Positions 1-60,088 of a stretch of 64,000 nt of DNA are shown in pieces. The stretch lies in the NCBI GenBank assembly GCA_009914755.4, contig CP086569.2, forward strand, positions 61,824,001-61,888,000, given 5' to 3'. The notes beneath the pieces are model-generated. The model made no database searches. It saw only the letters and a list, made by a program, of their open reading frames with translations, and had not been told where the DNA came from. Positions within the stretch are counted from its first letter, which is position 1, and every line of letters starts with the position of its first letter. Source of the stretch: the human T2T-CHM13v2.0 reference genome, Homo sapiens. Made by a program: the position numbers and the translations under genes.

Positions 1-11
1 AATGGAATTGA

Positions 12-31300: not shown

Positions 31301-31910
31301 ATGGAATTGAATGGAATGGAATGGAGTAGAGTGAAATGGAATCGAGTCACAAGGAATGGACAGGAATAGAACGGTCTCGAATTGAATGGAATCGTATGGA
31401 ATGGAATTCAACGGAATGGAATGGACAGCCACGGAATGGAATGCACTCGAAAGCAATGGACTCGAAACTAATGGACTGGAATCGAATGGACTCGACTGGT
31501 ACGGACTCCAATGGAATGGAATCGAATGGAATTGAATCGAACGGAATGGACTCGAAGTGATAAGAGTGCAATGGAAAGGTCTCGAATGGAATGGAAATTA
31601 ATGGAATGGAATGGAATCGAATGAAATGGAGTCAAAAGGAATGGAATCGAATGGCAAGAAATCGAATGTAATGGAATCACAAGGAATGGATGTGAACGGA
31701 ACGGAATGGAATGGAATCAAAAGGAATGGAATCGAATGGAATGGACTCGAATGGAAATGACTCGAATAGAATGGAATTCAACAAAATAGAATCAAATGTA
31801 ATGGAATGGAATGGAAAGGAATCGAAACGAAAGGAATGGAGACAGATGGAATGGAATAGAACAGAGAGCAATGGTATAGAATGGAATGGAATCATATGGA
31901 ATGGAATTGA
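28351..31910 (+). repeat. HOR copy 9, 3560 bp, class B
   Basis: 121-aa ORF at 29680. MYGIEQ at 28998. Confidence 0.9.
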
Positions 31911-34900: not shown

Positions 34901-35430
34901 ATTGAATGGAATCGTATGGAATGGAATTCAACGGAATGGAATGGACAGCCACGGAATGGAATGCACTCGAAAGCAATGGACTCGAAACTAATGGACTGGA
35001 ATCGAATGGACTCGACTGGTACGGACTCCAATGGAATGGAATCGAATGGAATGGAATCGAACGGAATGGACTCGAAGTGATAAGAGTGCAATGGAAAGGT
35101 CTCGAATGGAATGGAAATTAATGGAATGGAATGGAATCGAATGAAATGGAGTCAAAAGGAATGGAATCGAATGGCAAGAAATCGAATGTAATGGAATCAC
35201 AAGGAATGGATGTGAACGGAACGGAATGGAATGGAATCAAAAGGAATGGAATCGAATGGAATGGACACGAATGGAAATGACTCGAATAGAATGGAATTCA
35301 ATAAAATACAATCAAATGTAATGGAATGGAATGGAAAGGAATCGAAACGAAAGGAATGGAGACAGATGGAATGGAATGGAACAGAGAGCAATGGTATATA
35401 ATGGAATGGAATCATATGGAATGGAATTGA
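31911..35430 (+). repeat. HOR copy 10, 3520 bp, class C
   Basis: 15-bp deletion junction at ~33198 (ORFs at 32919-33200 and 33184-33366). IGKDWN variant at 33225. Confidence 0.9.
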
Positions 35431-38400
35431 ATGGAATGGAATAATATGAAATGGAATGGAAAGGAATGGAATGCACTTGAATTAAATGGACTGGAATGGA
35501 ATGGACTCGAACGGAGTGGAATGGAAAGGATTGAAATAGAATGGAATGGACTCCTTTGGAATGGTCTAGTATGCAATGCAAACGACTGGCAGGGAATCAA
35601 AAGGAATGTAATCGAATGTATTGGACTGGAATACAGTGGACTCGAATACATTGGAAACGGAATGCAATGGAATGGAATGGAATAGTATGGAATGGAACGG
35701 AAAGGAATGAAGTAGAATGGACTAGAGTGGAATGGAATGGACTCGAAAGCAATGGACTGGAATGGAACGATCTTGAATGGACCGGAATCAAACGGAACGG
35801 AATGCAATGCAAGGCAATGAAATGGAATGGAATAAAAGAGAATGAAAGAGAATCAAATGCAATTGAATCGAATGGAATCGAATGGATTGGAAAGGAATAG
35901 AATGGAATGGAACGGAATTGACTCAAATGGAATGGACTAGAGCGGAATGGAGTCGAATGGAAGGCAAAGGAATGGAATCTATTGGAATGGACTGTAATGG
36001 AATGGCATGGAAGGGATTGGAATGGACTCGAATGGAAAGGACTGCAATAGAAAGGATTCGAATGGAATGAAAAAGAATTGTATGGAATAGAACAGAATGG
36101 AATCAAATCGAATGAAATGGAATGGAATAGAAAGGAATGGAATGAAATGGAATGGAAAGGATTCAAATGGAATGCAATCAAATGGAATGCAATCGAATGG
36201 AATGGAATCGAACGGAATGGAATAAAATGGAAGGAAACTGGCAAGAAATGGAATCGAAATGAATGGAGTGTTATGGAACGGACTCCAAAGGAATTGAATG
36301 TAATAGAATGGAGTGGAGTGGACTCGAATATAATGGACTGGAATGGAATGGAATCACATGGAATGGGAACGAATGGAATGGAATGGAAAGGAATGGAATC
36401 GAATGGAAAGGAGTCAAATGGAAGGGAATGAAATTGAATCAACAGGAATGGAAGGGAATAGAATAGACTGTAATGGAATGGACTCGAATAGAAAGGACAC
36501 GAATGCTCAAATTGGATGGACTCGAATGGAATGGAAACGAAAGGAATGTCATCGAATGGAATTGAATCGATTGGAATGAAATGGCATAGAATGGAGTGGA
36601 ATGAAATGGAATTGAATCGAAAGGAAAGGAAGCGAATGGACTGAAATGAAATGGAATGGAATTGAATGGAAAGTAATGCAATGGAATAGAATGGAACGAA
36701 ATTTCACGGAATGGAATCAAACAGAATGGAATCAAATCAATGGAATATAATCAAATGGAATGGAATGGAATGGAAAGGAATTGAATGGAATAGATTGGAT
36801 AGGAAGGGGTTGGAATGCAATGGAATGGAAAGGACTCGAATTTCATGAAACGGAATGGAATGAATTGGAATGGAATGGACTCGAATGGAATGGAATGTCA
36901 TGGAATGGCATAGAATGGAATGTCATGGAATGGCATCAAATGGAATGGAATCAAATGGAATGGCATCGAATGCAATGGAATGTTATGGAATGGAATGGAA
37001 TGTATTGGAATGGAATGTCCTCTAATGGAATGGATTCGAGTGGAATGGAATCGAATATAATGGAGTCGAATGAAATGGAATTGAAAGGAATGGGATCGAA
37101 TAGAATGGAATATACTGGAATGTAATGTAATGAAGTCGAATGTAATTGACTGGAATGGAATGTACATGAATGGAATGTAATCGAATGGAAAGTAATCCAA
37201 TGAAATAGAATCTAATGCAATAAAACCGACTCAAATGGAATAGAATGTAATGGAATGGAGTGCAGTGCAATGGAATGGAATGGAATGGAATGCAATGGAG
37301 TGGAATGGAATGGAATGGGATGGAATGGTATGGAATGGATAGTAAAGGACTGGAGTGAAATGGACTGTAAAGGAATGGACTCCAATTGAAAGGGCTCGAA
37401 AGGAATGGAGTCAAATGGAATGGTCTGGAATGGAATGAACTCGAATGTAATGCAATCCAATAGAATGGAATCGAATGGAATGGTGTATAAAGAAATGGAA
37501 TCGACGAGAATGGAAACAGATGGAATGGAATTGAAAGGAATGGAATTGAATGGAATGGGCACGAATGGAATGAAATTGTATGGAATAGAAGAGAATAGAA
37601 TGGAATGCAATGGATAAGAAAGGAATGGATTGGAATGGAAGGGAATGTAGTGTAATGGACTGGCATGGAATAAACTGGAATGCTACGGTCTCAAATGGAA
37701 TAAAAATGTATGGAATGGAATGCCATGAAATGGAATCGAATGTCATAGAATGTAATGGAATGCAAAGAAATGGACTCCAAAATCATTGACTGGAAAGGCT
37801 GGGTGTCGAAAGGAATTGACTCCAATGGAATGGAATCGAATGGAATGGAAGTGAATAGAATCGAACTAAATCGAATGGAATGGAATTGATAGGAACGGAA
37901 TGGAAAGGAATGGAATGATTTGGCATGGAATGGAATCGAATGGACTCGAATGGAATGGAATGGAATGCAATGGAATGGAATGTATTAGAATGTAGTGAAC
38001 TTTAATGGAATGAACTCGAATGGATTCGACTGGAATGGAATGTTCTGGAAGTGAATGGACTCCAATGGAATGGATTCAAAAGGAATGGAATCGAAGGGAA
38101 TGGAATCTAATGGAATGGAATGAAATGGAAAGGAATCCAATCGAATAGCACGGAATTGAATTGAATGGAATCGAATGCAATGGAATCTAATGAAACGGAA
38201 AGGAAAGGAACGGAATGGCATGGAATGGGCTGGAATGGAATGGAATCGAAACGAATGTAATGGAATCGAACTGAAGAGACTGGAATGGAAGGCACTGGCA
38301 TGGAAGGGAGTTTAATGGAAGGTTCTCGAAAAGACTGGAATGGAATGGAATGGAATTGAATGGAACGGATATAGAGTCAAATGGAATTGAATGGAATGGA

Positions 38401-38990
38401 ATGGAGTAGAGTGAAATGGAATCGAGTCACAAGGAATGGACAGGAATAGAACGGTCTCGAATTGAATGGAATCGTATGGAATGGAATTCAACGGAATGGA
38501 ATGGACAGCCACGGAATGGAATGCACTCGAAAGCAATGGACTCGAAACTAATGGACTGGAATCGAATGGACTCGACTGGTACGGACTCCAATGGAATGGA
38601 ATCGAATGGAATTGAATCGAACGGAATGGACTCGAAGTGATAAGAGTGCAATGGAAAGGTCTCGAATGGAATGGAAATTAATGGAATGGAATGGAATCGA
38701 ATGAAATGGAGTCAAAAGGAATGGAATCGAATGGCAAGAAATCGAATGTAATGGAATCACAAGGAATGGATGTGAACGGAACGGAATGGAATGGAATCAA
38801 AAGGAATGGAATCGAATGGAATGGACTCGAATGGAAATGACTCGAATAGAATGGAATTCAACAAAATAGAATCAAATGTAATGGAATGGAATGGAAAGGA
38901 ATCGAAACGAAAGGAATGGAGACAGATGGAATGGAATAGAACAGAGAGCAATGGTATAGAATGGAATGGAATCATATGGAATGGAATTGA
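35431..38990 (+). repeat. HOR copy 11, 3560 bp, class B
   Basis: 121-aa ORF at 36760. MYGIEQ at 36078. Confidence 0.9.
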
Positions 38991-41900
38991 ATGGAATGGA
39001 ATAATATGAAATGGAATGGAAAGGAATGGAATGCACTTGAATTAAATGGACTGGAATGGAATGGACTCGAACGGAGTGGAATGGAAAGGATTGAAATAGA
39101 ATGGAATGGACTCCTTTGGAATGGTCTAGTATGCAATGCAAACGACTGGCAGGGAATCAAAAGGAATGTAATCGAATGGATTGGACTGGAATACAATGGA
39201 CTCGAATACATTGGAAACGGAATGCAATGGAATGGAATGGAATAGTATGGAATGGAACGGAAAGGAATGAAGTAGAATGGACTAGAGTGGAATGGAATGG
39301 ACTCGAAAGCAATGGACTGGAATGGAACGATTTTGAATGGACCGGAATCAAACGGAACGGAATGCAATGCAAGGCAATCAAATGGAATGGAATAAAAGAG
39401 AATGAAAGAGAATCAAATGCAATTGAATCGAATGGAATCGAATGGATTGGAAAGGAATAGAATGGAATGGAATGGAATTGACTCAAATGGAATGGACTAG
39501 AACGGAATGGAGTCGAATGGAAGGCAAAGGAATGGAATCTATTGGAATGGACTGTAATGGAATGGCATGGAAGGGATTGGAATGGACTCGAATGGAAAGG
39601 ACTGCAATAGAAAGGATTCGAATGGAATGAAAAAGAATTGAATGGAATAGAACAGAATGGAATCAAATCGAATGAAATGGAATGGAATAGAAAGGAATGG
39701 AATGAAATGGAATGGAAAGGATTCAAATGGAATGCGATCAAATGGAATGCAATCGAATGGAATGGAATCGAACGGAATGGAATAAAATGGAAGGAAACTG
39801 GCAAGAAATGGAATCGAAATGAATGGAGGGTTATGGAACGGACTCCAAAGGAATTGAATGTAATAGAATGGAGTGGAGTGGACTCGAATATAATGGACTG
39901 GAATGGAATGGAATCACATGGAATGGGAACGAATGGAATGGAATGGAAAGGAATGGAATCGAATGGAAAGGAATCAAATGGAAGGGAATGAAATTGAATC
40001 AACAGGAATGGAAGGGAATAGAATAGACTGTAATGGAATGGACTCGAATAGAATGGACACGAATGCTCAAATTGGATGGACTCGAATGGAATGGAAACGA
40101 AAGGAATGTCATCGAATGGAATTGAATCGATTGGAATGAAATGGCATAGAATGGAGTGGAATGAAATGGAATTGAATCGAAAGGAAAGGAAGCGAATGGA
40201 CTGAAATGAAATGGAATGGAATTGAATGGAAAGTAATGCAATGGAATAGAATGGAACGAAATTTCACGGAATGGAATCAAAACAATGGAATATAATCAAA
40301 TGGAATGGAATGGAATGGAAAGGAATTGAATGGAATAGATTGGATAGGAAAGGATTGGAATGCAATGGAATGGAAAGGACTCGAATTTCATGAAACGGAA
40401 TGGAATGAATTGGAATGGAATGGACTCGAATGGAATGGAATGTCATGGAATGGCATCAAATGGAATGGAATCAAATGGAATGGCATCGAATGCAATGGAA
40501 TGTTATGGAATGGAATGGAATGTATTGGAATGGAATGTCCTCTAATGGAATGGATTCGAGTGGAATGGAATCGAATATAATGGAGTCGAATGAAATGGAA
40601 TTGAAAGGAATGGGATCGAATAGAATGGAATATACTGGAATGTAATGTAATGAAGTCGAATGTAATTGACTGGAATGGAATGTACATGAATGGAATGTAA
40701 TCGAATGGAAAGTAATCCAATGAAATAGAATCTAATGCAATAAAACCGACTCAAATGGAATAGAATGTAATGGAATGGAGTGCAGTGCAATGGAATGGAA
40801 TGGAATGGAATGCAATGGAGTGGAATGGAATGGAATGGGATGGAATGGTATGGAATGGATAGTAAAGGACTGGAGTGAAATGGACTGTAAAGGAATGGAC
40901 TCCAATTGAAAGGGCTCGAAAGGAATGGAGTCAAATGGAATGGTCTGGAATGGAATGAACTCGAATGTAATGCAATCCAATAGAATGGAATCGAATGGAA
41001 TGGAGTATAAAGAAATGGAATCGACGAGAATGGAAACAGATGGAATGGAATTGAAAGGAATGGAATTGAATGGAATGGGCACGAATGGAATGAAATTGTA
41101 TGGAATAGAAGAGAATGGAATGGAATGCAATGGATAAGAAAGGAATGGATTGGAATGGAAGGGAATGTAGTGTAATGGACTGGCATGGAATAAACTGGAA
41201 TGCTACGGTCTCAAATGGAATAAAAATGTATGGAATGGAATGCCATGAAATGGAATCGAATGTCATAGAATGTAATGGAATGCAAAGAAATGGACTCCAA
41301 AATCATTGACTGGAAAGGCTGGGTGTCGAAAGGAATTGACTCCAATGGAATGGAATCGAATGGAATGGAAGTGAATAGAATCGAACTAAATCGAATGGAA
41401 TGGAATTGATAGGAACGGAATGGAAAGGAATGGAATGATTTGGCATGGAATGGAATCGAATGGACTCGAATGGAATGGAATGGAATGCAATGGAATGGAA
41501 TGTATTAGAATGTAGTGAACTTTAATGGAATGAACTCGAATGGATTCGACTGGAATGGAATGTTCTGGAAGTGAATGGACTCCAATGGAATGGATTCAAA
41601 AGGAATGGAATCGAAGGGAATGGAATCTAATGGAATGGAATGAAATGGAAAGGAATCCAATCGAATAGCACGGAATTGAATTGAATGGAATCGAATGCAA
41701 TGGAATCTAATGAAACGGAAAGGAAAGGAACGGAATGGCATGGAATGGGCTGGAATGGAATGGAATCGAAACGAATGGAATGGAATCGAACTGAAGAGAC
41801 TGGAATGGAAGGCACTGGCATGGAAGGGAGTTTAATGGAAGGTTCTCGAAAAGACTGGAATGGAATGGAATGGAATTGAATGGAACGGATATAGAGTCAA

Positions 41901-42510
41901 ATGGAATTGAATGGAATGGAATGGAGTAGAGTGAAATGGAATCGAGTCACAAGGAATGGACAGGAATAGAACGGTCTCGAATTGAATGGAATCGTATGGA
42001 ATGGAATTCAACGGAATGGAATGGACAGCCACGGAATGGAATGCACTCGAAAGCAATGGACTCGAAACTAATGGACTGGAATCGAATGGACTCGACTGGT
42101 ACGGACTCCAATGGAATGGAATCGAATGGAAGGGAATCGAACGGAATGGACTCGAAGTGATAAGAGTGCAATGGAAAGGTCTCGAATGGAATGGAAATTA
42201 ATGGAATGGAATGGAATCGAATGAAATGGAGTCAAAAGGAATGGAATCGAATGGCAAGAAATCGAATGTAATGGAATCACAAGGAATGGATGTGAACGGA
42301 ACGGAATGGAATGGAATCAAAAGGAATGGAATCGAATGGAATGGACTCGAATGGAAATGACTCGAATAGAATGGAATTCAACAAAATAGAATCAAATGTA
42401 ATGGAATGGAATGGAAAGGAATCGAAACGAAAGGAATGGAGACAGATGGAATGGAATAGAACAGAGAGCAATGGTATAGAATGGAATGGAATCATATGGA
42501 ATGGAATTGA
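38991..42510 (+). repeat. HOR copy 12, 3520 bp, class C
   Basis: 15-bp deletion junction at ~40278 (ORFs at 39999-40280 and 40264-40446). IGKDWN variant at 40305. Confidence 0.9.
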
Positions 42511-45500
42511 ATGGAATGGAATAATATGAAATGGAATGGAAAGGAATGGAATGCACTTGAATTAAATGGACTGGAATGGAATGGACTCGAACGGAGTGGA
42601 ATGGAAAGGATTGAAATAGAATGGAATGGACTCCTTTGGAATCGTCTAGTATGCAATGCAAACGACTGGCAGGGAATCAAAAGGAATGTAATCGAATGGA
42701 TTGGACTGGAATACAATGGACTCGAATACATTGGAAACGGAATGCAATGGAATGGAATGGAATAGTATGGAATGGAACGGAAAGGAATGAAGTAGAATGG
42801 ACTAGAGTGGAATGGAATGGACTCGAAAGCAATGGACTGGAATGGAACGATCTTGAATGGACCGGAATCAAACGGAACGGAATGCAATGCAAGGCAATCA
42901 AATGGAATGGAATAAAAGAGAATGAAAGAGAATCAAATGCAATTGAATCGAATGGAATCGAATGGATTGGAAAGGAATAGAATGGAATGGAATGGAATTG
43001 ACTCAAATGGAATGGACTAGAACGGAATGGAGTCGAATGGAAGGCAAAGGAATGGAATCTATTGGAATGGACTGTAATGGAATGGCATGGAAGGGATTGG
43101 AATGGACTCGAATGGAAAGGACTGCAATAGAAAGGATTCGAATGGAATGAAAAAGAATTGAATGGAATAGAACAGAATGGAATCAAATCGAATGAAATGG
43201 AATGGAATAGAAAGGAATGGAATGAAATGGAATGGAAAGGATTCAAATGGAATGCGATCAAATGGAATGCAATCGAATGGAATGGAATCGAACGGAATGG
43301 AATAAAATGGAAGGAAACTGGCAAGAAATGGAATCGAAATGAATGGAGGGTTATGGAACGGACTCCAAAGGAATTGAATGTAATAGAATGGAGTGGAGTG
43401 GACTCGAATATAATGGACTGGAATGGAATGGAATCACATGGAATGGGAACGAATGGAATGGAATGGAAAGGAATGGAATCGAATGGAAAGGAATCAAATG
43501 GAAGGGAATGAAATTGAATCAACAGGAATGGAAGGGAATAGAATAGACTGTAATGGAATGGACTCGAATAGAATGGACACGAATGCTCAAATTGGATGGA
43601 CTCGAATGGAATGGAAACGAAAGGAATGTCATCGAATGGAATTGAATCGATTGGAATGAAATGGCATAGAATGGAGTGGAATGAAATGGAATTGAATCGA
43701 AAGGAAAGGAAGCGAATGGACTGAAATGAAATGGAATGGAATTGAATGGAAAGTAATGCAATGGAATAGAATGGAACGAAATTTCACGGAATGGAATCAA
43801 AACAATGGAATATAATCAAATGGAATGGAATGGAATGGAAAGGAATTGAATGGAATAGATTGGATAGGAAAGGATTGGAATGCAATGGAATGGAAAGGAC
43901 TCGAATTTCATGAAACGGAATGGAATGAATTGGAATGGAATGGACTCGAATGGAATGGAATGTCATGGAATGGCATCAAATGGAATGGAATCAAATGGAA
44001 TGGCATCGAATGCAATGTAATGTTATGGAATGGAATGGAATGTATTGGAATGGAATGTCCTCTAATGGAATGGATTCGAGTGGAATGGAATCGAATATAA
44101 TGGAGTCGAATGAAATGGAATTGAAAGGAATGGGATCGAATAGAATGGAATATACTGGAATGTAATGTAATGAATTCGAATGTAATTGACTGGAATGGAA
44201 TGTACATGAATGGAATGTAATCGAATGGAAAGTAATCCAATGAAATAGAATCTAATGCAATAAAACCGACTCAAATGGAATAGAATGTAATGGAATGGAG
44301 TGCAGTGCAATGGAATGGAATGGAATGGAATGCAATGGAGTGGAATGGAATGGAATGGGATGGAATGGTATGGAATGGATAGTAAAGGACTGGAGTGAAA
44401 TGGACTGTAAAGGAATGGACTCCAATTGAAAGGGCTCGAAAGGAATGGAGTCAAATGGAATGGTCTGGAATGGAATGAACTCGAATGTAATGCAATCCAA
44501 TAGAATGGAATCGAATGGAATGGAATATAAAGAAATGGAATCGACGAGAATGGAAACAGATGGAATGGAATTGAAAGGAATGGAATTGAATGGAATGGGC
44601 ACGAATGGAATGAAATTGTATGGAATAGAAGAGAATAGAATGGAATGCAATGGATAAGAAAGGAATGGATTGGAATGGAAGGGAATGTAGTGTAATGGAC
44701 TGGCATGGAATAAACTGGAATGCTACGGTCTCAAATGGAATAAAAATGTATGGAATGGAATGCCATGAAACGGAATCGAATGTCATAGAATGTAATGGAA
44801 TGCAAAGAAATGGACTCCAAAATCATTGACTGGAAAGGCTGGGTGTCGAAAGGAATTGACTCCAATGGAATGGAATCGAATGGAATGGAAGTGAATAGAA
44901 TCGAACTAAATCGAATGGAATGGAATTGATAGGAACGGAATGGAAAGGAATGGAATGATTTGGCATGGAATGGAATCGAATGGACTCGAATGGAATGGAA
45001 TGGAATGCAATGGAATGGAATGTATTAGAATGTAGTGAACTTTAATGGAATGAACTCGAATGGATTCGACTGGAATGGAATGTTCTGGAAGTGAATGGAC
45101 TCCAATGGAATGGATTCAAAAGGAATGGAATCGAAGGGAATGGAATCTAATGGAATGGAATTAAATGGAAATGAATCAAATCGAATAGCACGGAATTGAA
45201 CTGAATGGAATCGAATGCAATGGAATCTAATGAAACGGAAAGGAAAGGAATGGAATGGCATGGAATGGGCTGGAATGGAATGGAATCGAAACGAATGGAA
45301 TGGAATCGAACTGAAGAGACTGGAATGGAATGCACTGGCATGGAAGGGATTTTAATGGAACGTTCTTCAAAAGACTGGAATCGAATGGAATGGAATTGAA
45401 TGGAACGGATATAGAGTGAAATGGAATTGAATGTAATGGAATGGAGTAGAGTGAAATGGAATCGAGTCACTAGGATTGGACAGGAATAGAACGGTCTCGA

Positions 45501-45990
45501 ATTGAATGGAATCGTATGGAATGGAATTCAACGGAATGGAATGGACAGCCACGGAATGGAATGCACTCGAATGCAATGGACTCGAAACTAATGGACTGGA
45601 ATCGAATGGAATGGAATCGAACGGAATGGAATCGAAGTGAAAAGAGTGCAATGGAAAGGTCTCGAATGGAATGGAAATTAATGGAATGGAATGGAATCGA
45701 ATGAAATGGAGTCAAAAGGAATGGAATCGAATGGCAAGAAATCGAATGTAATGGAATCACAAGGAATGGATGTGAACGGAACGGAATGGAATGGAATCAA
45801 AAGGAATGGAATCGAATGGAATGGACTCGAATGGAAATGACTAGCATAGAATGGAATTCAACAAAATAGAATCAAATGTAATGGAATGGAATGGAAAGGA
45901 ATCGAAACGAAAGGACTGGAGACAGATGGAATGGAATGGAACAGAGAGCAATGGTATATAATGGAATGGAATCATATGGAATGGAATTGA
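42511..45990 (+). repeat. HOR copy 13, 3480 bp, hybrid: class C head (15-bp deletion at ~43798) and family-2 (D) tail from ~45.15 kb, including the 40-bp deletion at ~45606
   Basis: C markers at 43519-43800, 43784-43966 and 43825 (IGKDWN). D markers appear from 45151 (ggaattaaatggaaatgaatcaaatcg) and at 45025 (MPFHSFPF...SVQFRAIRFDSFPFN). 3480 = 3535 - 15 - 40. Confidence 0.88.
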
Positions 45991-48900
45991 ATGGAATGGA
46001 ATAATATGAAATGGAATGGAAAGGAATGGAATGCACTTGAATTAAATGGACTGGAATGGAATGGACTCGAACGGAGTGGAATGGAAAGGATTGAAATAGA
46101 ATGGAATGGACTCCTTTGGAATGGTCTAGTATGCAATGCAAACGACTGGCAGGGAATCAAAAGGGATGTAATCGAATGGATTGGACTGGAATACAATGGA
46201 CTCGAATACATTGGAAACGGAATGCAATGGAATGGAATGGAATAGTATGGAATGGAACGGAAAGGAATGAAGTAGAATGGACTAGAGTGGAATGGAATGG
46301 ACTCGAAAGCAATGGACTGGAATGGAACGATCTTGAATGGACCGGAATCAAACGGAACGGAATGCAATGCAAGGCAATCAAATGGAATGGAATAAAAGAG
46401 AATGAAAGAGAATCAAATGGAATTGAATCGAATGGAATCGAACGGATTGGAAAGGAATAGAATGGAATGGAATGGAATTGACTCAAATGGAATGGACTAG
46501 AACGGAATGGAGTCCAATGCAAGGCAAAGGAATGGAATCTATTGGAATGGACTGTAATGGAATGGCATGGAAGGGATTGGAATGGACTCGAATGGAAAGG
46601 ACTGCAATAGAAAGGATTCGAATGGAATGAAAAAGAATTGAATGGAATAGAACAGAATGGAATCAAATCGAATGAAATGGAATGGAATAGAAAGGAATGG
46701 AATGAAATGGAATGGAAAGGATTCAAATGGAATGCAATCGAATGGAATGCAATCGAATGGAATGGAATCGAACGGAATGGAATAAAATGGAAGGAAACTG
46801 GCAAGAAATGGAATCGAAATGAATGGAGTGTTATGGAACGGACTCCAAAGGAATTGAATGTAATAGAATGGAGTGGAGTGGACTCGAATATAATGGACTG
46901 GAATGGAATGGAATCACATGGAATGGGAACGAATGGAATGGAATGGAAAGGAATGGAATCGAATGGAAAGGAATCAAATGGAAGGGAATGAAATTGAATC
47001 AACAGGAATGGAAGGGAATAGAATAGACTGTAATGGAATGGACTCGAATAGAATGGACACGAATGCTCAAATTGGATGGACTCGAATGGAATGGAAACGA
47101 ATGGAATGTCATCCAATGGAATTGAATCGATTGGAATGAAATGGCATAGAATGGAGTGGAATGAAATGGAATTGAATCGAAAGGAAAGGAAGCGAATGGA
47201 CTGAAATGAAATGGAATGGAATTGAATGGAAAGTAATGCAATGCAATAGAATGGAACGAAATTTCACGGAATGGAATCAAACAGAATGGAATCAAATCAA
47301 TGGAATATAATCAAATGGAATGGAATGGAATGGAAAGGAATGGAATGGAATAGATTGGATAGGAAGGGATTGGAATGCAATGGAATGGAAAGGACTCGAA
47401 TTTCATGAAACGGAATGGAATGAATTGGAATGGAATGGACTCGAATGGAATGGAATGTCATGGAATGGCATCAAATGGAATGGAATCAAATGGAATGGCA
47501 TCGAATGCAATGGAATGTTATGGAATGGAATGGAATGTATTGGAATGGAATGTCCTCTAATGGAATGGATTCGAGTGGAATGGAATCGAATATAATGGAG
47601 TCGAATGAAATGGAATTGAAAGGAATGGGATCGAATAGAATGGAATATACTGGAATGTAATGTAATGAAGTCGAATGTAATTGACTGGAATGGAATGTAC
47701 ATGAATGGAATGTAATCGAATGGAAAGTAATCCAATGAAATAGAATCTAATGCAATAAAACCGACTCAAATGGAATAGAATGTAATGGAATGGAGTGCAG
47801 TGCAATGGAATGGAATGGAATGGAATGCAATGGAGTGGAATGGAATGGAATGGGATGGAATGGTATGGAATGGATAGTAAAGGACTGGAGTGAAATGGAC
47901 TGTAAAGGAATGGACTCCAATTGAAAGGGCTCGAAAGGAATGGAGTCAAATGGAATGGTCTGGAATGGAATGAACTCGAATGTAATGCAATCCAATAGAA
48001 TGGAATCGAATGGAATGGAATATAAAGAAATGGAATCGACGAGAATGGAAACAGATGGAATGGAATTGAAAGGAATGGAATTGAATGGAATGGGCACGAA
48101 TGGAATGAAATTGTATGGAATAGAAGAGAATAGAATGGAATGCAATGGATAAGAAAGGAATGGATTGGAATGGAAGGGAATGTAGTGTAATGGACTGGCA
48201 TGGAATAAACTGGAATGCTACGGTCTCAAATGGAATAAAAATGTATGGAATGGAATGCCATGAAACGGAATCGAACGTCATAGAATGTAATGGAATGCAA
48301 AAAAATGGACTCCAAAATCATTGACTGGAAAGGCTGGGTGTCGAAAGGAATTGACTCCAATGGAATGGAATCGAATGGAATGGAAGTGAATAGAATCGAA
48401 CTAAATCGAATGGAATGGAATTGATAGGAACGCAATGGAAAGGAATGGAATGATTTGGCATGGAATGGAATCGAATGGACTCGAATGGAATGGAATGGAA
48501 TGCAATGGAATGGAATGTATTAGAATGTAGTGAACTTTAATGGAATGAACTCGAATGGATTCGACTGGAATGGAAGGTTCTGGAAGTGAATGGACTGAAA
48601 TGGAATGGATTCAAAAGGAATGGAATCGAAGGGAATGGAATCTAATGGAATGGAATTAAATGGAAAGGAATCAAATCGAATAGCACGGAATTGAACTGAA
48701 TGGAATCGAATGCAATGGAATCTAATGAAACGGAAAGGAAAGGAATGGAATGGGATGGAATGGGCTGGAATGGAATGGAATCGAAACGAATGGAATGGAA
48801 TTGAACTGAAGAGACTGGAATGGAATGCACTGGCATGGAAGGGATTTTAATGGAACGTTCTTGAAAAGACTGGAATCGAATGGAATGGAATTGAATGGAA

Positions 48901-49485
48901 CGGATATAGAGTCAAATGGAATTGCATGGAATGGAATGGAGTAGAGTGAAATGGAATCGAGTCAATAGGAATGGACAGGAATAGAACGGTCTCGAATTGA
49001 ATGGAATCGTATGGAATGGAATTCAACGGAATGGAATGGACAGCCACGGAATGGAATGCACTCGAATGCAATGGACTCGAAACTAATGGACTGGAATCGA
49101 ATGGAATGGAATCGAACGGAATGGAATCGAAGTGAAAAGAGTGCAATGGAAAGGTCTCGAATGGAATGGAAATTAATGGAATGGAATGGAATCGAATGAA
49201 ATGGAGTCAAAAGGAATGGAATCGAATGGCAAGAAATCGAATGTAATGGAATCACAAGGAATGGATGTGAACGGAACGGAATGGAATGGAATCAAAAGGA
49301 ATGGAATTGAATGGAATGGACTCGAATGGAAATGACTAGCATAGAATGGAATTCAACAAAATAGAATCAAATGTAATGGAATGGAATGGAAAGGAATCGA
49401 AACGAAAGGAATGGAGACAGATGGAATGGAATGGAACAGAGAGCAATGGTATATAATGGAATGGAATCATATGGAATGGAATTGA
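45991..49485 (+). repeat. HOR copy 14, 3495 bp, family 2 (D1; 40-bp deletion at ~49096-49115)
   Basis: RDV/QKGCN variants at 45991 and 46101. MEWNGKEWNG at 47320. The 319-aa minus-strand ORF at 46157-47116 is a stop-loss artefact. Confidence 0.88.
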
Positions 49486-52400
49486 ATGGAATGGAATAAT
49501 ATGAAATGGAATGGAAAGGAATGGAATGCACTTGAATTAAATGGACTGGAATGGAATGGACTCGAACGGAGTGGAATGGAAAGGATTGAAATAGAATGGA
49601 ATGGACTCCTTTGGAATGGTCTAGTATGCAATGCAAACGACTGGCAGGGAATCAAAAGGGATGTAATCGAATGGATTGGACTGGAATACAATGGACTCGA
49701 ATACATTGGAAACGGAATGCAATGGAATGGAATGGAATAGTATGGAATGGAACGGAAAGGAATGAAGTAGAATGGACTAGAGTGGAATGGAATGGACTCG
49801 AAAGCAATGGACTGGAATGGAACGATCTTGAATGGACCGGAATCAAACGGAACGGAATGCAATGCAAGGCAATCAAATGGAATGGAATAAAAGAGAATGA
49901 AAGAGAATCAAATGGAATTGAATCGAATGGAATCGAACGGATTGGAAAGGAATAGAATGGAATGGAATGGAATTGACTCAAATGGAATGGACTAGAACGG
50001 AATGGAGTCCAATGCAAGGCAAAGGAATGGAATCTATTGGAATGGACTGTAATGGAATGGCATGGAAGGGATTGGAATGGACTCGAATGGAAAGGACTGC
50101 AATAGAAAGGATTCGAATGGAATGAAAAAGAATTGAATGGAATAGAACAGAATGGAATCAAATCGAATGAAATGGAATGGAATAGAAAGGAATGGAATGA
50201 AATGGAATGGAAAGGATTCAAATGGAATGCAATCGAATGGAATGCAATCGAATGGAATGGAATCGAACGGAATGGAATAAAATGGAAGGAAACTGGCAAG
50301 AAATGGAATCGAAATGAATGGAGTGTTATGGAACGGACTCCAAAGGAATTGAATGTAATAGAATGGAGTGGAGTGGACTCGAATATAATGGACTGGAATG
50401 GAATGGAATCACATGGAATGGGAACGAATGGAATGGAATGGAAAGGAATGGAATCGAATGGAAAGGAATCAAATGGAAGGGAATGAAATTGAATCAACAG
50501 GAATGGAAGGGAATAGAATAGACTGTAATGGAATGGACTCGAATAGAATGGACACGAATGCTCAAATTGGATGGAGTCGAATGGAATGGAAACGAACGGA
50601 ATGTCATCGAATGGAATTGAATCGATTGGAATGAAATGGCATAGAATGGAGTGGAATGAAATGGAATTGAATCGAAAGGAAAGGAAGCGAATGGACTGAA
50701 ATGAAATGGAATGGAATTGAATGGAAAGTAATGCAATGCAATAGAATGGAACGAAATTTCACGGAATGGAATCAAACAGAATGGAATCAAATCAATGGAA
50801 TATAATCAAATGGAATGGAATGGAATGGAAAGGAATGGAATGGAATAGATTGGATAGGAAGGGATTGGAATGCAATGGAATGGAAAGGACTCGAATTTCA
50901 TGAAACGGAATGGAATGAATTGGAATGGAATGGACTCGAATGGAATGGAATGTCATGGAATGGCATAGAATGGAATGGAATCAAATGGAATGGCATCGAA
51001 TGCAATGGAATGTTATGGAATGGAATGGAATGTATTGGAATGGAATGTCCTCTAATGGAATGGATTCGAGTGGAATGGAATCGAATATAATGGAGTCGAA
51101 TGAAATGGAATTGAAAGGAATGGGATCGAATAGAATGGAATATACTGGAATGTAATGTAATGAAGTCGAATGTAATTGACTGGAATGGAATGTACATGAA
51201 TGGAATGTAATCGAATGGAAAGTAATCCAATGAAATAGAATCTAATGCAATAAAACCGACTCAAATGGAACAGAATGTAATGGAATGGAGTGCAGTGCAA
51301 TGGAATGGAATGGAATGGAATGCAATGGAGTGGAATGGAATGGAATGGGATGGAATGGTATGGAATGGATAGTAAAGGACTGGAGTGAAATGGACTGTAA
51401 AGGAATGGACTCCAATTGAAAGGGCTCGAAAGGAATGGAGTCAAATGGAATGGTCTGGAATGGAATGAACTCGAATGTAATGCAATCCAATAGAATGGAA
51501 TCGAATGGAATGGAATATAAAGAAATGGAATCGACGAGAATGGAAACAGATGGAATGGAATTGAAAGGAATGGAATTGAATGGAATGGGCACGAATGGAA
51601 TGAAATTGTATGGAATAGAAGAGAATAGAATGGAATGCAATGGATAAGAAAGGAATGGATTGGAATGGAAGGGAATGTAGTGTAATGGACTGGCATGGAA
51701 TAAACTGGAATGCTACGGTCTCAAATGGAATAAAAATGTATGGAATGGAATGCCATGAAACGGAATCGAATGTCATAGAATGTAATGGAATGTAAAGAAA
51801 TGGACTCCAAAATCATTGACTGGAAAGGCTGGGTGTCGAAAGGAATTGACTCCAATAGAATGGAATCGAATGGAATGGAAGTGAATAGAATCGAACTAAA
51901 TCGAATGGAATGGAATTGACAGGAACGGAATGGAAAGGAATGGAATGATTTGGCATGAAATGGAATCGAATGGACTCGAATGGAATTGAATGGAATGCAA
52001 TGGAATGGAATGTATTAGAATGTAGAAACTTTAATGGAATGAACTCGAATGGATTCGACTGGAATGGAATGTTCTGGAAGTGAATGGACTCCAATGGAAT
52101 GGAATCAAAATGAATGGAATCGAAGGGAATGGAATCTAATGGAATGGAATTAAATGGAAAGGAATCAAATCGAATAGCACGGAATTGAACTGAATGGAAT
52201 CGAATGCAATGGAATCTAATGAAACGGAAAGGAAAGGAATGGAATGGCATGGAATGGGCTGGAATGGAATGGAATCGAAACGAATGGAATGGAATCGAAC
52301 TGAAGAGACTGGAATGGAATGCACTGGCATGGAAGGGATTTTAATGGAACGTTTTTGAAAAGACTGGAATCGAATGGAATGGAATTGAATGGAACGGATA

Positions 52401-53039
52401 TAGAGTCAAATGGAATTGAATGGAATGGAATGGAGTAGAGTGAAATGGAATCGAGTCACTAGGAATGGACAGGAATAGAACGGTCTCGAATTGAATGGAA
52501 TCGTATGGAATGGAATTCAACGGAATGGAATGGACAGCCACGGAATGGAATGGACAGCCACGGAATGGAATGCACTCGAATGCAATGGACTCGAAACTAA
52601 TGGACTGGAATCGAATGGACTCGACTGGTATGGACTCCAATGGAATGGAATCGAATGGAATGGAATCCAACAGAATGGACTCGAAGTGAAAAGAGTGCAA
52701 TGGAAAGGTCTCGAATGGAATGGAAATTAATGGAATGGAATGGAATCGAATGAAATGGAGTCAAAAGGAATGGAATCGAATGGCAAGAAATCGAATGTAA
52801 TGGAATCACAAGGAATGGATGTGAACGGAACGGAATGGAATGGAATCAAAAGGAATGGAATCGAATGGAATGGACTCGAATGGACATGACTCGAATAGAA
52901 TGGAATTCAACAAAATAGAATCAAATGTAATGGAATGGAATGGAAAGGAATCGAAACGAAAGGAATGGAGACAGATGGAATGGAATGGAACAGAGAGCAA
53001 TGGTATAGAATGGAATGGAATCATATGGAATGGAATTGA
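49486..53039 (+). repeat. HOR copy 15, 3554 bp, family 2 (D2; 20-bp tandem duplication at 52521-52560; no 40-bp deletion)
   Basis: cggaatggaatggacagcca occurs twice in tandem at 52521-52560. 145-aa ORF at 51813-52250 (MPFHSFPF...). Confidence 0.88.
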
Positions 53040-56000
53040 ATGGAATGGAATAATATGAAATGGAATGGAAAGGAATGGAATGCACTTGAATTAAATGGAC
53101 TGGAATGGAATGGACTCGAACGGAGTGGAATGGAAAGGATTGAAATAGAATGGAATGGACTCCTTTGGAATGGTCTAGTAGGCCATGCAAACGACTGTCA
53201 GGGAATCAAAAGGAATGTAATCGAATGGATTGGACTGGAATACAATGGACTCGAATACATTGGAAACGGAATGCAATGGAATGGAATGGAATAGTATGGA
53301 ATGGAACGGAAAGGAATGAAGTAGAATGGACTAGAGTGGAAAGGAATGGACTCGAAAGCAATGGACTGGAATGGAACGATCTTGAATGGACCGGAATCAA
53401 ACGGAACGGAATGCAATGCAAGGCAATCAAATGGAATGGAATAAAAGAGAATGAAAGAGAATCAAATGGAATTGAATCGAATGGAATCGAACGGATTGGA
53501 AAGGAATAGAATGGAATGGAATGGAATTGACTCAAATGGAATGGACTAGAACGGAATGGAGTCCAATGCAAGGCAAAGGAATGGAATCTATTGGAATGGA
53601 CTGTAATGGAATGGCATGGAAGGGATTGGAATGGACTCGAATGGAAAGGACTGCAATAGAAAGGATTCGAATGGAATGAAAAAGAATTGAATGGAATAGA
53701 ACAGAATGGAATCAAATCGAATGAAATGGAATGGAATAGAAAGGAATGGAATGAAATGGAATGGAAAGGATTCAAATGGAATGCAATCGAATGGAATGCA
53801 ATCGAATGGAATGGAATCGAACGGAATGGAATAAAATGGAAGGAAACTGGCAAGAAATGGAATCGAAATGAATGGAGTGTTATGGAACGGACTCCAAAGG
53901 AATTGAATGTAATAGAATGGAGTGGAGTGGACTCGAATATAATGGACTGGAATGGAATGGAATCACATGGAATGGGAACGAATGGAATGGAATGGAAAGG
54001 AATGGAATCGAATGGAAAGGAATCAAATGGAAGGGAATGAAATTGAATCAACAGGAATGGAAGGGAATAGAATAGACTGTAATGGAATGGACTCGAATAG
54101 AATGGACACGAATGCTCAAATTGGATGGAGTCGAATGGAATGGAAACGAATGGAATGTCATCGAATGGAATTGAATCGATTGGAATGAAATGGCATAGAA
54201 TGGAGTGGAATGAAATGGAATTGAATCGAAAGGAAAGGAAGCGAATGGACTGAAATGAAATGGAATGGAATTGAATGGAAAGTAATGCAATGCAATAGAA
54301 TGGAACGAAATTTCACGGAATGGAATCAAACAGAATGGAATCAAATCAATGGAATATAATCAAATGGAATGGAATGGAATGGAAAGGAATTGAATGGAAT
54401 AGATTGGATAGGAAGGGATTGGAATGCAATGGAATGGAAAGGACTCGAATTTCATGAAACGGAATGGAATGAATTGGAATGGAATGGACTCGAATGGAAT
54501 GGAATGTCATGGAATGGCATCAAATGGAATGGAATCAAATGGAATGGCATCGAATGCAATGGAATGTTATGGAATGGAATGGAATGTATTGGAATGGAAT
54601 GTCCTCTAATGGAATGGATTCGAGTGGAATGGAATCGAATATAATGGAGTCGAATGAAATGGAATTGAAAGGAATGGGATCGAATAGAATGGAATATACT
54701 GGAATGTAATGTAATGAAGTCGAATGTAATTGACTGGAATGGAATGTACATGAATGGAATGTAATCGAATGGAAAGTAATCCAATGAAATAGAATCTAAT
54801 GCAATAAAACCGACTCAAATGGAACAGAATGTAATGGAATGGAGTGCAGTGCAATGGAATGGAATGGAATGGAATGCAATGGAGTGGAATGGAATGGAAT
54901 GGGATGGAATGGTATGGAATGGATAGTAAAGGACTGGAGTGAAATGGACTGTAAAGGAATGGACTCCAATTGAAAGGGCTCGAAAGGAATGGAGTCAAAT
55001 GGAATGGTCTGGAATGGAATGAACTCGAATGTAATGCAATCCAATAGAATGGAATCGAATGGAATGGAATATAAAGAAATGGAATCGACGAGAATGGAAA
55101 CAGATGGAATGGAATTGAAAGGAATGGAATTGAATGGAATGGGCACGAATGGAATGAAATTGTATGGAATAGAAGAGAATAGAATGGAATGCAATGGATA
55201 AGAAAGGAATGGATTGGAATGGAAGGGAATGTAGTGTAATGGACTGGCATGGAATAAACTGGAATGCTACGGTCTCAAATGGAATAAAAATGTATGGAAT
55301 GGAATGCCATGAAACGGAATCGAATGTCATAGAATGTAATGGAATGTAAAGAAATGGACTCCAAAATCATTGACTGGAAAGGCTGGGTGTCGAAAGGAAT
55401 TGACTCCAATAGAATGGAATCGAATGGAATGGAAGTGAATAGAATCGAACTAAATCGAATGGAATGGAATTGACAGGAACGGAATGGAAAGGAATGGAAT
55501 GATTTGGCATGAAATGGAATCGAATGGACTCGAATGGAATTGAATGGAATGCAATGGAATGGAATGTATTAGAATGTAGAAACTTTAATGGAATGAACTC
55601 GAATGGATTCGACTGGAATGGAATGTTCTGGAAGTGAATGGACTCCAATGGAATGGAATCAAAATGAATGGAATCGAAGGGAATGGAATCTAATGGAATG
55701 GAATTAAATGGAAAGGAATCAAATCGAATAGCACGGAATTGAACTGAATGGAATCGAATGCAATGGAATCTAATGAAACGGAAAGGAAAGGAATGGAATG
55801 GCATGGAATGGGCTGGAATGGAATGGAATCGAAACGAATGGAATGGAATCGAACTGAAGAGACTGGAATGGAATGCACTGGCATGGAAGGGATTTTAATG
55901 GAACGTTTTTGAAAAGACTGGAATCGAATGGAATGGAATTGAATGGAACGGATATAGAGTCAAATGGAATTGAATGGAATGGAATGGAGTAGAGTGAAAT

Positions 56001-56593
56001 GGAATCGAGTCACTAGGAATGGACAGGAATAGAACGGTCTCGAATTGAATGGAATCGTATGGAATGGAATTCAACGGAATGGAATGGACAGCCACGGAAT
56101 GGAATGGACAGCCACGGAATGGAATGCACTCGAATGCAATGGACTCGAAACTAATGGACTGGAATCGAATGGACTCGACTGGTATGGACTCCAATGGAAT
56201 GGAATCGAATGGAATGGAATCCAACAGAATGGACTCGAAGTGAAAAGAGTGCAATGGAAAGGTCTCGAATGGAATGGAAATTAATGGAATGGAATGGAAT
56301 CGAATGAAATGGAGTCAAAAGGAATGGAATCGAATGGCAAGAAATCGAATGTAATGGAATCACAAGGAATGGATGTGAACGGAACGGAATGGAATGGAAT
56401 CAAAAGGAATGGAATCGAATGGAATGGACTCGAATGGACATGACTCGAATAGAATGGAATTCAACAAAATAGAATCAAATGTAATGGAATGGAATGGAAA
56501 GGAATCGAAACGAAAGGAATGGAGACAGATGGAATGGAATGGAACAGAGAGCAATGGTATAGAATGGAATGGAATCATATGGAATGGAATTGA
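53040..56593 (+). repeat. HOR copy 16, 3554 bp, family 2 (D2; 20-bp tandem duplication at 56075-56114; GGCC patch at 53181)
   Basis: VGHANDCQ variant at 53040 (gtaggccatgcaaacgactgtcagg). 145-aa ORF at 55367-55804 identical to the copy-15 ORF. Confidence 0.88.
53181..53198. other. Clustered three-substitution patch that creates a GGCC (HaeIII) site. It is present only in copies 16 and 17 (second site at 56735-56738).
   Basis: taggccatgcaaacgactgtcag here, against tatgcaatgcaaacgactggcag in the other 16 copies. Confidence 0.85.
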
Positions 56594-59500: not shown

Positions 59501-60088
59501 GAACGGATATAGAGTCAAATGGAATTGAATGGAATGGAATGGAGTAGAGTGAAATGGAATCGAGTCACTAGGAATGGACAGGAATAGAACGGTCTCGAAT
59601 TGAATGGAATCGTATGGAATGGAATTCAACGGAATGGAATGGACAGCCACGGAATGGAATGCACTCGAATGCAATGGACTCGAAACTAATGGACTGGAAT
59701 CGAATGGAATGGAATCGAACGGAATGGACTCGAAGTGAAAAGAGTGCAATGGAAAGGTCTCGAATGGAATGGAAATTAATGGAATGGAATGGAATCGAAT
59801 GAAATGGAGTCAAAAGGAATGGAATCGAATGGCAAGAAATCGAATGTAATGGAATCACAAGGAATGGATGTGAACGGAACGGAATGGAATGGAATCAAAA
59901 GGAATGGAATCGAATGGAATGGACTCGAATGGAAATGACTCGAATAGAATGGAATTCAACAAAATAGAATCAAATGTAATGGAATGGAATGGAAAGGAAT
60001 CGAAACGAAAGGAATGGAGACAGATGGAATGGAATGGAACAGAGAGCAATGGTATAGAATGGAATGGAATCATATGGAATGGAATTGA
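56594..60088 (+). repeat. HOR copy 17, 3495 bp, mosaic: family-2 head (GGCC patch at 56735), family-1-like middle (~57.0-59.0 kb), family-2 tail with the 40-bp deletion at ~59700
   Basis: VGHANDCQ at 56594. Family-1 markers at 57045 (MDWKGIEW), 57506 (TRMEWKRKECHRMEL) and 57923 (KELNG). D markers at 59123 (SVQFPAIRFDSFPFN). Confidence 0.85.

What the first reader, a model, noticed from the sequence alone, without database searches (positions are those of the whole stretch)
44750..45480. Abrupt switch from variant family 1 to family 2 inside copy 13
Up to ~44.8 kb, copy 13 follows the C haplotype. From ~45.15 kb a dense cluster of new variants appears and persists to the end of the window. These include ggaattaaatggaaatgaatcaaatcg, gaactgaatgg, aaggaatggaatggcatgg, gggattttaatggaacgttcttcaaaag and cactaggattgg, together with the 40-bp deletion at ~45606. 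So the array contains a junction between two HOR subfamilies located within a single unit. This is the signature of unequal crossover or gene conversion between diverged arrays, not of gradual drift.
Basis: seen in the sequence. Interest (0 to 1): 0.55.

Follow-up and report, generated by a model that had tools for sequence, protein, structure and literature searches.

The report
Hybrid repeat unit in DYZ1-like satellite
Inside a 64-kb block of DYZ1-type (GGAAT)n satellite, one 3.5-kb repeat unit is a real hybrid marking the border between two locally homogenised groups of units; this is the ordinary, already described footprint of unequal exchange in satellite arrays.

Summary
The window has 18 full copies of a ~3.5-kb higher-order unit. 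Nine SNVs separate copies 1-12 from copies 14-18 with no exceptions. Copy 13 (42500-45979) carries the second-group allele at all nine (45162-45641). Its first 1.4 kb is identical to copy 10. A breakpoint in copy 13 is significant (max chi-square, permutation P<0.0005).

- The two "families" differ by fixed changes only within a 540-column cassette of the unit (P~5e-6 for that clustering).
- They share nine polymorphisms elsewhere.
- At least nine recombination-type events are needed among the 18 copies, and 13 copies are mosaics.
- Two independent metagenome contigs carry the nine alleles in other combinations.

So this is one array with pervasive exchange, not a join of two diverged arrays. 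The switch persists for six units, which fits a crossover or amplification edge and not a short conversion patch.

The array is HSat3A6/DYZ1-type. It is colinear with a published DYZ1 unit and carries the marker 24-mer. It is ~4-6% diverged from that unit and lacks the defining HaeIII site. Y origin was not verified. Ordinary; low interest.

The parts
1..42499 (.). Copies 1-12 of the ~3.5-kb unit ('family 1' domain). All carry G,C,T,C,G,G,C,A,T at the nine diagnostic columns. Their 5' halves fall into several sub-haplotypes.
21260..42499 (.). Three 7,080-bp dimers (3560-bp unit with a 25-bp insertion + 3520-bp 'C-type' unit with a 15-bp deletion) = copies 7-12. This is the most recently amplified block; c7 and c9 differ by 2 SNVs, c8 and c10 by 4.
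42500..45979 (.). Copy 13, the hybrid unit (3480 bp = basic 3535 minus the 15-bp C-type deletion minus the 40-bp deletion).
42500..43871 (.). 5' segment of copy 13. It has 0 differences from copy 10 over 1400 alignment columns. It carries the C-type markers: 42643 C, 43256 G, 15-bp deletion after 43788, 43802 A, 43871 A.
43872..44524 (.). Most parsimonious breakpoint interval. It lies between the last C-type marker and the first site where c13 departs from c8/c10/c12. It contains two c13-private SNVs (44018, 44175).
   Evidence: (parents c12/c17)
44525..45161 (.). Outer part of the breakpoint interval. c13 has 44525 A and 44771 C, as do all of c14-18 and the published DYZ1 unit. With c14 as parent, the best breakpoint falls at 45103-45162.
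45162..45641 (.). Family-2 'cassette' in copy 13. It holds all nine diagnostic SNVs (45162, 45178, 45201, 45251, 45350, 45361, 45367, 45471, 45641). It also holds five c13-private SNVs; one of them (45172 T) is the ancestral allele, shared with the published DYZ1 unit and contig L002.
45598..45610 (.). Site of the 40-bp deletion, with its position ambiguous within the direct repeat GGAATCGAATGGA. Shared with c14, c17 and c18; absent from c15 and c16.
45980..63572 (.). Copies 14-18 ('family 2' domain). The cassette recurs at 48657-49136, 52151-52690, 55705-56244, 59260-59739 and 62755-63234. Outside the cassette there are no fixed differences from copies 1-12.

Best explanation
The window is one tandem array of a DYZ1-type (HSat3A6) 3.5-kb unit built from GGAAT pentamers. 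Such arrays evolve by out-of-register exchange between units. That exchange is unequal sister-chromatid exchange or intrachromosomal NAHR if the array is on the male-specific Y. Short conversion tracts and pentamer-scale slippage add to it.

Copies 1-12 and copies 13(3' part)-18 are two neighbouring, locally amplified domains. They carry different alleles of a ~0.5-kb hypervariable cassette in the 3' third of the unit.

Copy 13 is the border unit. Its 5' 1.4 kb belongs to the most recently spread haplotype of the left domain and is identical to copy 10. Its 3' part is an old, fairly divergent member of the right domain. The join is a crossover-type junction or the edge of the latest amplification. 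It lies in 650-1300 bp of sequence that is identical between the parent types (43872-45161).

Shown: the hybrid structure, the breakpoint, the persistence of the switch, the confinement of fixed differences to the cassette, and pervasive mosaicism.

Inferred: the molecular mechanism, and which sequences were donor and recipient.
For: Array structure and family.
- Pentamer array with 3480-3560-bp units.
- Full-length colinear match to a published 3564-bp DYZ1 unit.
- The HSat3A6 marker 24-mer occurs 17 times; none of the other 13 subfamily marker 24-mers occurs exactly.

Diagnostic sites and breakpoint.
- Family-2 alleles occur in 0/108 cells in c1-12 and 54/54 in c13-18.
- Breakpoint P<0.0005.
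- c13 segment distances: 0 SNVs to c10 against 12-17 to c14-17 in columns 1-1400; 11-14 to c14-18 against 20-28 to c1-12 in columns 2681-3580.

Persistence. The switch holds for six units with no reversion.

Exchange is routine in this array.
- Rm>=9.
- 13 of 18 copies paint as mosaics.
- Three 7,080-bp dimers are present.
- All larger indels are multiples of 5 bp bounded by direct repeats.

c13's 3' part is an old lineage. It has six private SNVs in its 3' 900 columns. One of them is an ancestral allele (45172 T) lost from the other 17 copies but present in contig L002 and in the published unit.

Literature.
- Units in the middle of arrays are homogenised while divergent units accumulate towards the periphery (10.1101/2022.12.01.518658).
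- Intra-array gene conversion was seen in father-son transmissions (10.64898/2026.06.03.729890).
Against: - The mechanism is inferred from pattern only; no reciprocal product, read-level or pedigree evidence is available.
- The breakpoint cannot be placed more precisely than 0.65-1.3 kb.
- The window shows only 18 units, so the extent of either domain is unknown.
- It is also unknown whether family-1 alleles return beyond 64 kb. If they do, the event would be a long conversion or insertion patch.
- Chromosome and species were not verified.
- The units are 4-6% diverged from canonical DYZ1 and lack its HaeIII site.
Confidence: 0.75

Rival explanations
1. Gene conversion. A tract copied from a family-1 C-type unit overwrote the 5' part of a pre-existing family-2 unit, or the reverse, without any crossover or change in copy number.
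For: - c13's 5' 1.4 kb is identical to c10, while its 3' part is old.
- That fits a recent conversion of the 5' part of a border unit.
- Fine-scale reassortment of alleles only 16-50 bp apart is seen in contigs L001 and L002.
- Shared polymorphisms are present.
- Gene conversion in Yq12 is documented.
Against: - Conversion could explain why c13's 5' part looks like c10.
- It does not explain the domain switch itself, because family-2 cassettes continue for six units without reverting.
- The left edge of such a tract cannot be seen. c12 and c13 are both C-type, and c12's 3' end resembles the unit type that normally precedes C-type 5' ends.
Confidence: 0.13
2. Assembly artefact. A misjoin or collapse in a near-identical satellite joined reads from two different parts of the array, or from two arrays, inside the 0.65-1.3 kb of identical sequence.
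For: - The junction lies in a stretch with no distinguishing markers.
- Satellite arrays are the regions most often flagged in Y assemblies (10.64898/2026.06.03.729890).
- No read data could be checked here.
Against: - c13 carries eight private SNVs on both sides of the junction.
- Its 3' part shares five variants specifically with the adjacent c14 (40-bp deletion, 45631 A, 45843 A, 45845 C, 45959 T), as expected for true neighbours.
- Mosaic units are the rule across the whole window.
- Long reads normally span several 3.5-kb units.
Confidence: 0.07
3. Join of two long-separated, diverged arrays or HOR subfamilies by inter-array exchange.
For: - There are nine fixed differences plus indel differences between the two groups.
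- The boundary is abrupt.
- Inter-array NAHR in Yq12 is considered possible in the literature.
Against: - Fixed differences are confined to 15% of the unit (P~5e-6).
- There are 9 shared polymorphisms against 9 fixed differences.
- c17 and c18 are family-1-like in their 5' two-thirds.
- The nine alleles occur reassorted in independent contigs.
- Overall divergence between the groups is ~1%. By contrast, divergence between this array and canonical DYZ1 is ~4-6%.
Confidence: 0.05

Closest known systems
DYZ1 / HSat3A6, the ~3.5-3.6-kb pentamer-derived satellite unit of human Yq12 (Nakahori 1986, as cited in PMC6805231; Altemose 2014, PMC4022460; Rhie 2023; Hallast 2023)
   Same: - GGAAT/CATTC pentamer base.
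- Unit length 3480-3560 bp.
- End-to-end colinearity with a published 3564-bp unit.
- Published DYZ1 primers hit once per unit in the expected order.
- The HSat3A6-specific 24-mer is present about once per unit.
   Different: - 93.8% identity including gaps, 96.3% substitutions only, to the published unit. Six contaminant DYZ1 contigs in bacterial and MAG (metagenome-assembled genome) assemblies are 98.7-99.7% identical to that unit.
- The defining HaeIII site is GGCA in the window unit, and no GGCC occurs at that position in any of the 18 copies.
- The marker 24-mer occurs once per unit, against twice in the canonical unit.
- No DYZ2 flank lies in the window, so Yq12 context is unverified.
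HOR-haplotype domains and layered expansions in satellite arrays, generated by unequal crossing-over (described for Y centromeric, DYZ19 and Yq12 arrays in Hallast 2023, 10.1101/2022.12.01.518658; Rhie 2023, 10.1101/2022.12.01.518724)
   Same: - Blocks of neighbouring units share variants.
- Blocks have sharp borders at arbitrary phase within a unit.
- Hybrid units occur at the borders.
- Recent local duplications of one or two units are present.
   Different: - The scale is only 18 units.
- The domain-defining differences are confined to a 0.5-kb cassette, not spread over the unit.
Intra-array gene conversion in Yq12 (10.64898/2026.06.03.729890)
   Same: Fine-scale reassortment of closely spaced variants among units.
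   Different: The c13 switch is not a patch; it persists for six units.

Membership tests
DYZ1 / HSat3A6 satellite | Derived from tandem GGAAT (CATTC) pentamers | tested here: met
   TRF finds one array over 1-63986 with consensus built from AATGG.
DYZ1 / HSat3A6 satellite | Higher-order unit of ~3.5-3.6 kb | tested here: met
   Autocorrelation peaks at 3560, 3520 and 3535. The anchor 24-mer is spaced 3480-3560 bp.
DYZ1 / HSat3A6 satellite | Full-length colinear homology to a published DYZ1 unit | tested here: met
   A single blastn alignment covers the whole 3520-bp unit at 93.8% against the MZT1a unit from PMC3925983 Additional file 1. Identity counting substitutions only is 96.3%. Canonical copies found elsewhere are 98.7-99.7% identical to that unit, so the window is a diverged variant.
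DYZ1 / HSat3A6 satellite | Subfamily-specific 24-mer TCGTTTCGATTCCTTTCCATTCCA (Altemose 2014, Table 1) | tested here: met
   17 exact occurrences in the window. There are no exact occurrences of the marker 24-mers of the other 13 HSat2/3 subfamilies.
DYZ1 / HSat3A6 satellite | One HaeIII (GGCC) site per unit, giving the classical 3.4-3.57-kb fragment | tested here: not met
   Only 2 GGCC sites occur in 64 kb (53181, 56735), both created by SNVs in c16 and c17. The homologous position reads GGCA in the window unit.
DYZ1 / HSat3A6 satellite | Location in Yq12, alternating with DYZ2 (HSat1B) blocks; male-specific | not testable with these tools
   No non-HSat3 sequence lies in the window, and no human assembly is available to map against.
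Hybrid unit from unequal crossover / domain border | Two segments of one unit have different nearest relatives, with a significant breakpoint | tested here: met
   Max chi-square P<0.0005. Painting gives c10 | c17-like | c14-like. Segment distances agree.
Hybrid unit from unequal crossover / domain border | All units downstream of the junction belong to the second type (no reversion) | tested here: met
   All nine alleles are present in c13-c18, to the end of the window. Beyond 64 kb is unknown.
Hybrid unit from unequal crossover / domain border | The same junction, or a copy-number change at it, seen in other haplotypes or assemblies | not testable with these tools
   The metagenome scan returned only two ~2-kb contigs, and neither spans columns 1290-2703. 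The same cassette pattern found nothing in genome contigs.
Short-tract gene conversion patch | Return to the recipient haplotype beyond the tract | tested here: not met
   No reversion to family-1 cassette alleles in c14-c18.
Two distinct HOR subfamilies / diverged arrays | Fixed differences distributed along the whole unit, with few or no shared polymorphisms | tested here: not met
   All 9 fixed SNVs lie in columns 2703-3242 (P~5e-6). There are 9 shared polymorphisms. The alleles are reassorted in L001 and L002.

The most novel reading that the evidence does not exclude
The array belongs to a HaeIII-negative DYZ1 sub-family, ~4-6% diverged from canonical DYZ1, that has not been described as such. 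Copy 13 would be a relic border unit where a recently expanding block meets older units. If it is fixed or lineage-specific across Y haplogroups, such hybrid border units could serve as stable landmarks for reconstructing how Yq12 blocks were duplicated and moved.
Probability: 0.15. Interest if true: 0.3.

Novelty: already known. Interest (0 to 1): 0.15.

Why it matters
It matters little on its own. It is a clean small-scale example of how satellite arrays are homogenised block by block and leave hybrid units at block borders. It also shows that apparent 'subfamilies' read off a short window can rest on one hypervariable 0.5-kb segment. Two practical points follow. This array would escape HaeIII-based virtual digestion, which one study used to partition DYZ1. 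Hybrid units like copy 13 could also serve as positional markers when comparing Yq12 assemblies.

Tried and rejected
- TRF reports only the pentamer-level periods because its maximum period is 500. The higher-order unit had to be found by autocorrelation and anchor k-mers.
- The Kogan DYZ1 primers, recalled from memory, were not found in the paper library. They matched the window only with 1 and 3 mismatches. I dropped them in favour of the published primers and unit sequence from PMC3925983.
- The first genome-contig scan, using the window-specific cassette pattern, found nothing. The second, using a pattern shared with canonical DYZ1, found only canonical DYZ1 contaminants. They served as a yardstick but said nothing about the junction.
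- The search for the same junction elsewhere failed. Only two ~2-kb metagenome contigs of this sub-family exist in the scanned collection, and neither spans the breakpoint.
- I considered a conversion donor from canonical DYZ1 and rejected it. The derived alleles of both families are absent from the published unit.
- I considered general hypervariability of the 3' third as the sole cause of the clustering and rejected it. SNV density there is about 1.5-2 times higher, but the clustering of fixed sites stays at P~5e-6 when conditioned on observed SNV positions.
- SNV counts for the 3' part of L001 in the add-fragments alignment are probably inflated by about 136 terminal bases that blastn left unaligned. 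I did not use them.

Full report
**What the window is.** TRF reports one uninterrupted array of AATGG-derived repeats over 1-63986. Base composition and GC skew are uniform throughout. Autocorrelation shows a higher-order period near 3560, 3535 and 3520 bp. The local best lag changes stepwise along the window. An anchor 24-mer recurs 19 times and defines 18 full copies plus a 428-bp stub. Copy starts are 1, 3536, 7096, 10631, 14165, 17700, 21260, 24820, 28340, 31900, 35420, 38980, 42500, 45980, 49475, 53029, 56583, 60078 and 63573. Copy 13 is 42500-45979 and, at 3480 bp, is the shortest unit.

**Checking the observation.**
- A MAFFT alignment of the 18 copies (3580 columns) gives pairwise SNV differences of 2-32 within c1-12 and 9-36 within c14-18. 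Differences between the two groups are 27-56. c13 is intermediate.
- The variant matrix shows nine SNV columns (2703, 2719, 2742, 2792, 2891, 2902, 2908, 3012, 3242) fixed differently between c1-12 and c14-18. c13 has the second-group allele at all nine, at window positions 45162, 45178, 45201, 45251, 45350, 45361, 45367, 45471 and 45641.
- An alignment-free 13-mer count gives the same partition.
The three long ones occur once each, because they include c13-private SNVs.
- The 40-bp deletion is real. It is bounded by the direct repeat GGAATCGAATGGA and is shared with c14, c17 and c18 but not with c15 or c16. Those two copies instead carry a 20-bp duplication.
- Max chi-square tests with permutation give P<0.0005 for a breakpoint in c13. 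The best position is columns 1387-2066 (43871-44525) with c17 as the right-hand parent, or columns 2644-2703 (45103-45162) with c14.
- By segment, c13 has 0 SNV differences from c10 in columns 1-1400, against 12-17 from c14-17. In columns 2681-3580 it has 11-14 differences from c14-18, against 20-28 from c1-12.
- The last marker specific to the c8/c10/c12 haplotype is at 43871. c13 already differs from those copies at 44525 and 44771.

**What the two 'families' really are.**
- All nine fixed differences fall within 540 of 3580 columns. For nine random points on a circle this has P~2.7e-6. When the nine are drawn from the 125 observed SNV positions, P~5e-6. This holds even though the 3' third has about 1.5-2 times the SNV density of the rest.
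- The remaining 85% of the unit has no fixed difference.
- c17 and c18 resemble family 1 in their 5' two-thirds.
- Nine polymorphisms are shared between the two groups, equal to the number of fixed differences.
- The four-gamete test requires at least nine recombination-type events among the 18 copies.
- A copying-model painting finds 13 of 18 copies to be mosaics of other copies. c13 paints as c10 (columns 59-1387, no mismatch), then c17-like, then c14-like.
- Copies 7-12 are three 7,080-bp dimers.
- All larger indels (15, 20, 25 and 40 bp) are multiples of five and bounded by direct repeats.

The window is therefore one array with pervasive exchange. Two neighbouring domains in it differ in one hypervariable cassette.

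**Polarity.** I took a published 3564-bp DYZ1 unit (MZT1a blood, PMC3925983 Additional file 1) as an outgroup. At the nine sites, family 2 has the outgroup allele at four (45162, 45178, 45251, 45641) and a derived allele at five. Both groups have thus diverged from a common ancestor. Neither set of derived alleles comes from canonical DYZ1. c13 carries eight private SNVs. One of them, 45172 T, is the ancestral allele. It has been lost from the other 17 copies but is present in the outgroup and in an independent contig. c13's 3' part is therefore an old lineage, while its 5' part is a very recent relative of c10.

**Related sequences elsewhere.**
- A degenerate pattern covering both cassette alleles found two ~2-kb metagenome contigs, PKQM01003431.1 and OOKJ01001410.1. 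They are about 97-98.5% identical to window units over their full-length alignments.
- At the nine sites they read G A C C G G C A A and T A C T G G C A T. Family 1 reads G C T C G G C A T and family 2 reads T A C T T C T T A. The alleles are therefore reassorted elsewhere in this sub-family.
- Neither contig spans the c13 breakpoint, so I could not test whether the junction recurs.
- A pattern shared with canonical DYZ1 found six contigs in bacterial and MAG assemblies. They are 98.7-99.7% identical to the published DYZ1 unit, carry its HaeIII site, and are only ~94-95% identical to the window. They are best read as human male DNA contamination, and they show how homogeneous canonical DYZ1 is.

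**Identity of the array.**
- Published DYZ1 primers hit once per unit, with 0-2 errors, in the expected order on the minus strand.
- A window unit aligns end to end with the published unit at 93.8% including gaps. The window consensus is 96.3% identical to it counting substitutions only.
- The HSat3A6-specific 24-mer of Altemose 2014 (PMC4022460) occurs 17 times. None of the other 13 subfamily marker 24-mers occurs exactly.
- The classical defining HaeIII site is absent. There are only two GGCC sites in 64 kb, both created de novo in c16 and c17.
- Hallast et al. partitioned DYZ1 by virtual HaeIII digestion, with 3,569-bp fragments the most abundant.
- Recent work calls HSat3A6 Y-specific. Altemose 2014 lists 'Y, 7'. 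AATGG repeats also occur on other ape Y chromosomes.
- I therefore file the array as a diverged DYZ1/HSat3A6-type variant. Its chromosome and species are not verified.

**Mechanism.** The switch persists through six units (>=18.8 kb) without reverting. A short conversion tract therefore cannot account for it. A crossover-type junction, or the edge of the latest local amplification, can. The recently spread C-type 5' segment is joined to an old family-2 3' segment. That fits a border unit between a block still being homogenised and older neighbours. This matches published descriptions of Yq12:
- evolution by unequal exchange, with frequent sister-chromatid exchanges;
- homogenised array interiors with divergent units towards the periphery, and NAHR, slippage or conversion proposed as causes;
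- gene conversion observed in father-son transmissions.

The hybrid structure and the statistics are shown. The molecular mechanism and its direction are inferred. An assembly misjoin cannot be excluded without reads. It is disfavoured because c13 shares five variants specifically with its neighbour c14 and has private variants on both sides of the junction.

**Verdict.** c13 is a real recombinant junction, but it is not a join between diverged arrays or whole-unit HOR subfamilies, and it is one of many mosaic junctions in the window. The phenomenon is well known for satellite arrays and for Yq12 in particular. Interest is low.

Noticed in passing
window 1-64000; homologous position ~unit offset 2220 (e.g. 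44697-44719 in copy 13); GGCC at 53181 and 56735: The units lack the HaeIII site that defines classical DYZ1. The window reads GGACTGGCATGG where the canonical unit reads GGACAGGCCTGG. The only two GGCC sites in 64 kb arise from two SNVs shared by copies 16 and 17. Virtual or real HaeIII digestion would not cut this array into 3.5-kb units.
   Followed up: partly
L003-L008 (BMRF01000076.1, CALPCJ010000043.1, NZ_JBFAJD010000109.1, BNBB01000077.1, BMTN01000077.1, CAYVXY010000078.1): Six contigs in public bacterial or MAG genome assemblies (Actinomadura, Senimuribacter, two Streptomyces, Streptosporangium, a Polyangiaceae MAG) are 98.7-99.7% identical to the published human DYZ1 unit. This is best explained as human male DNA contamination of those assemblies.
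   Followed up: partly
L001 (PKQM01003431.1) and L002 (OOKJ01001410.1): Two metagenome contigs belong to the window's diverged sub-family (about 97-98.5% identity) and carry the nine family-defining alleles in mixed combinations. L001's 791-bp 5' part is identical to copy 3, and L001 carries the 20-bp insertion otherwise seen only in copies 15 and 16.
   Followed up: partly
window 21260-42499: Copies 7-12 form three 7,080-bp dimers (3560 + 3520 bp). c7 and c9 differ by 2 SNVs and c8 and c10 by 4. This is a recent two-unit amplification. The alternation breaks at c12/c13, which are both C-type in their 5' parts.
   Followed up: partly
window 44172 (copy 13): The c13-private SNV 44175 G>T creates an extra EcoRI site. 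Other units have two EcoRI sites, 370 bp apart, or 330 bp apart where the 40-bp deletion is present.
   Followed up: no
alignment columns 1290-1304, 1469-1493, 3072-3091, 3159-3198 (e.g. after 43788 and 45597 in copy 13; 52520-52539 region in copy 15): All larger indels between units (15, 25, 20 and 40 bp) are multiples of the pentamer and bounded by short direct repeats, as expected from slippage or out-of-register exchange at pentamer scale.
   Followed up: partly
alignment columns ~2500-3580 of every unit (e.g. 44960-45979 in copy 13): The 3' third of the unit has about 1.5-2 times the SNV density of the rest and more CpG dinucleotides (13-15 against 7-10 per 358 columns). The cause was not examined; CpG mutability is one possibility.
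   Followed up: no
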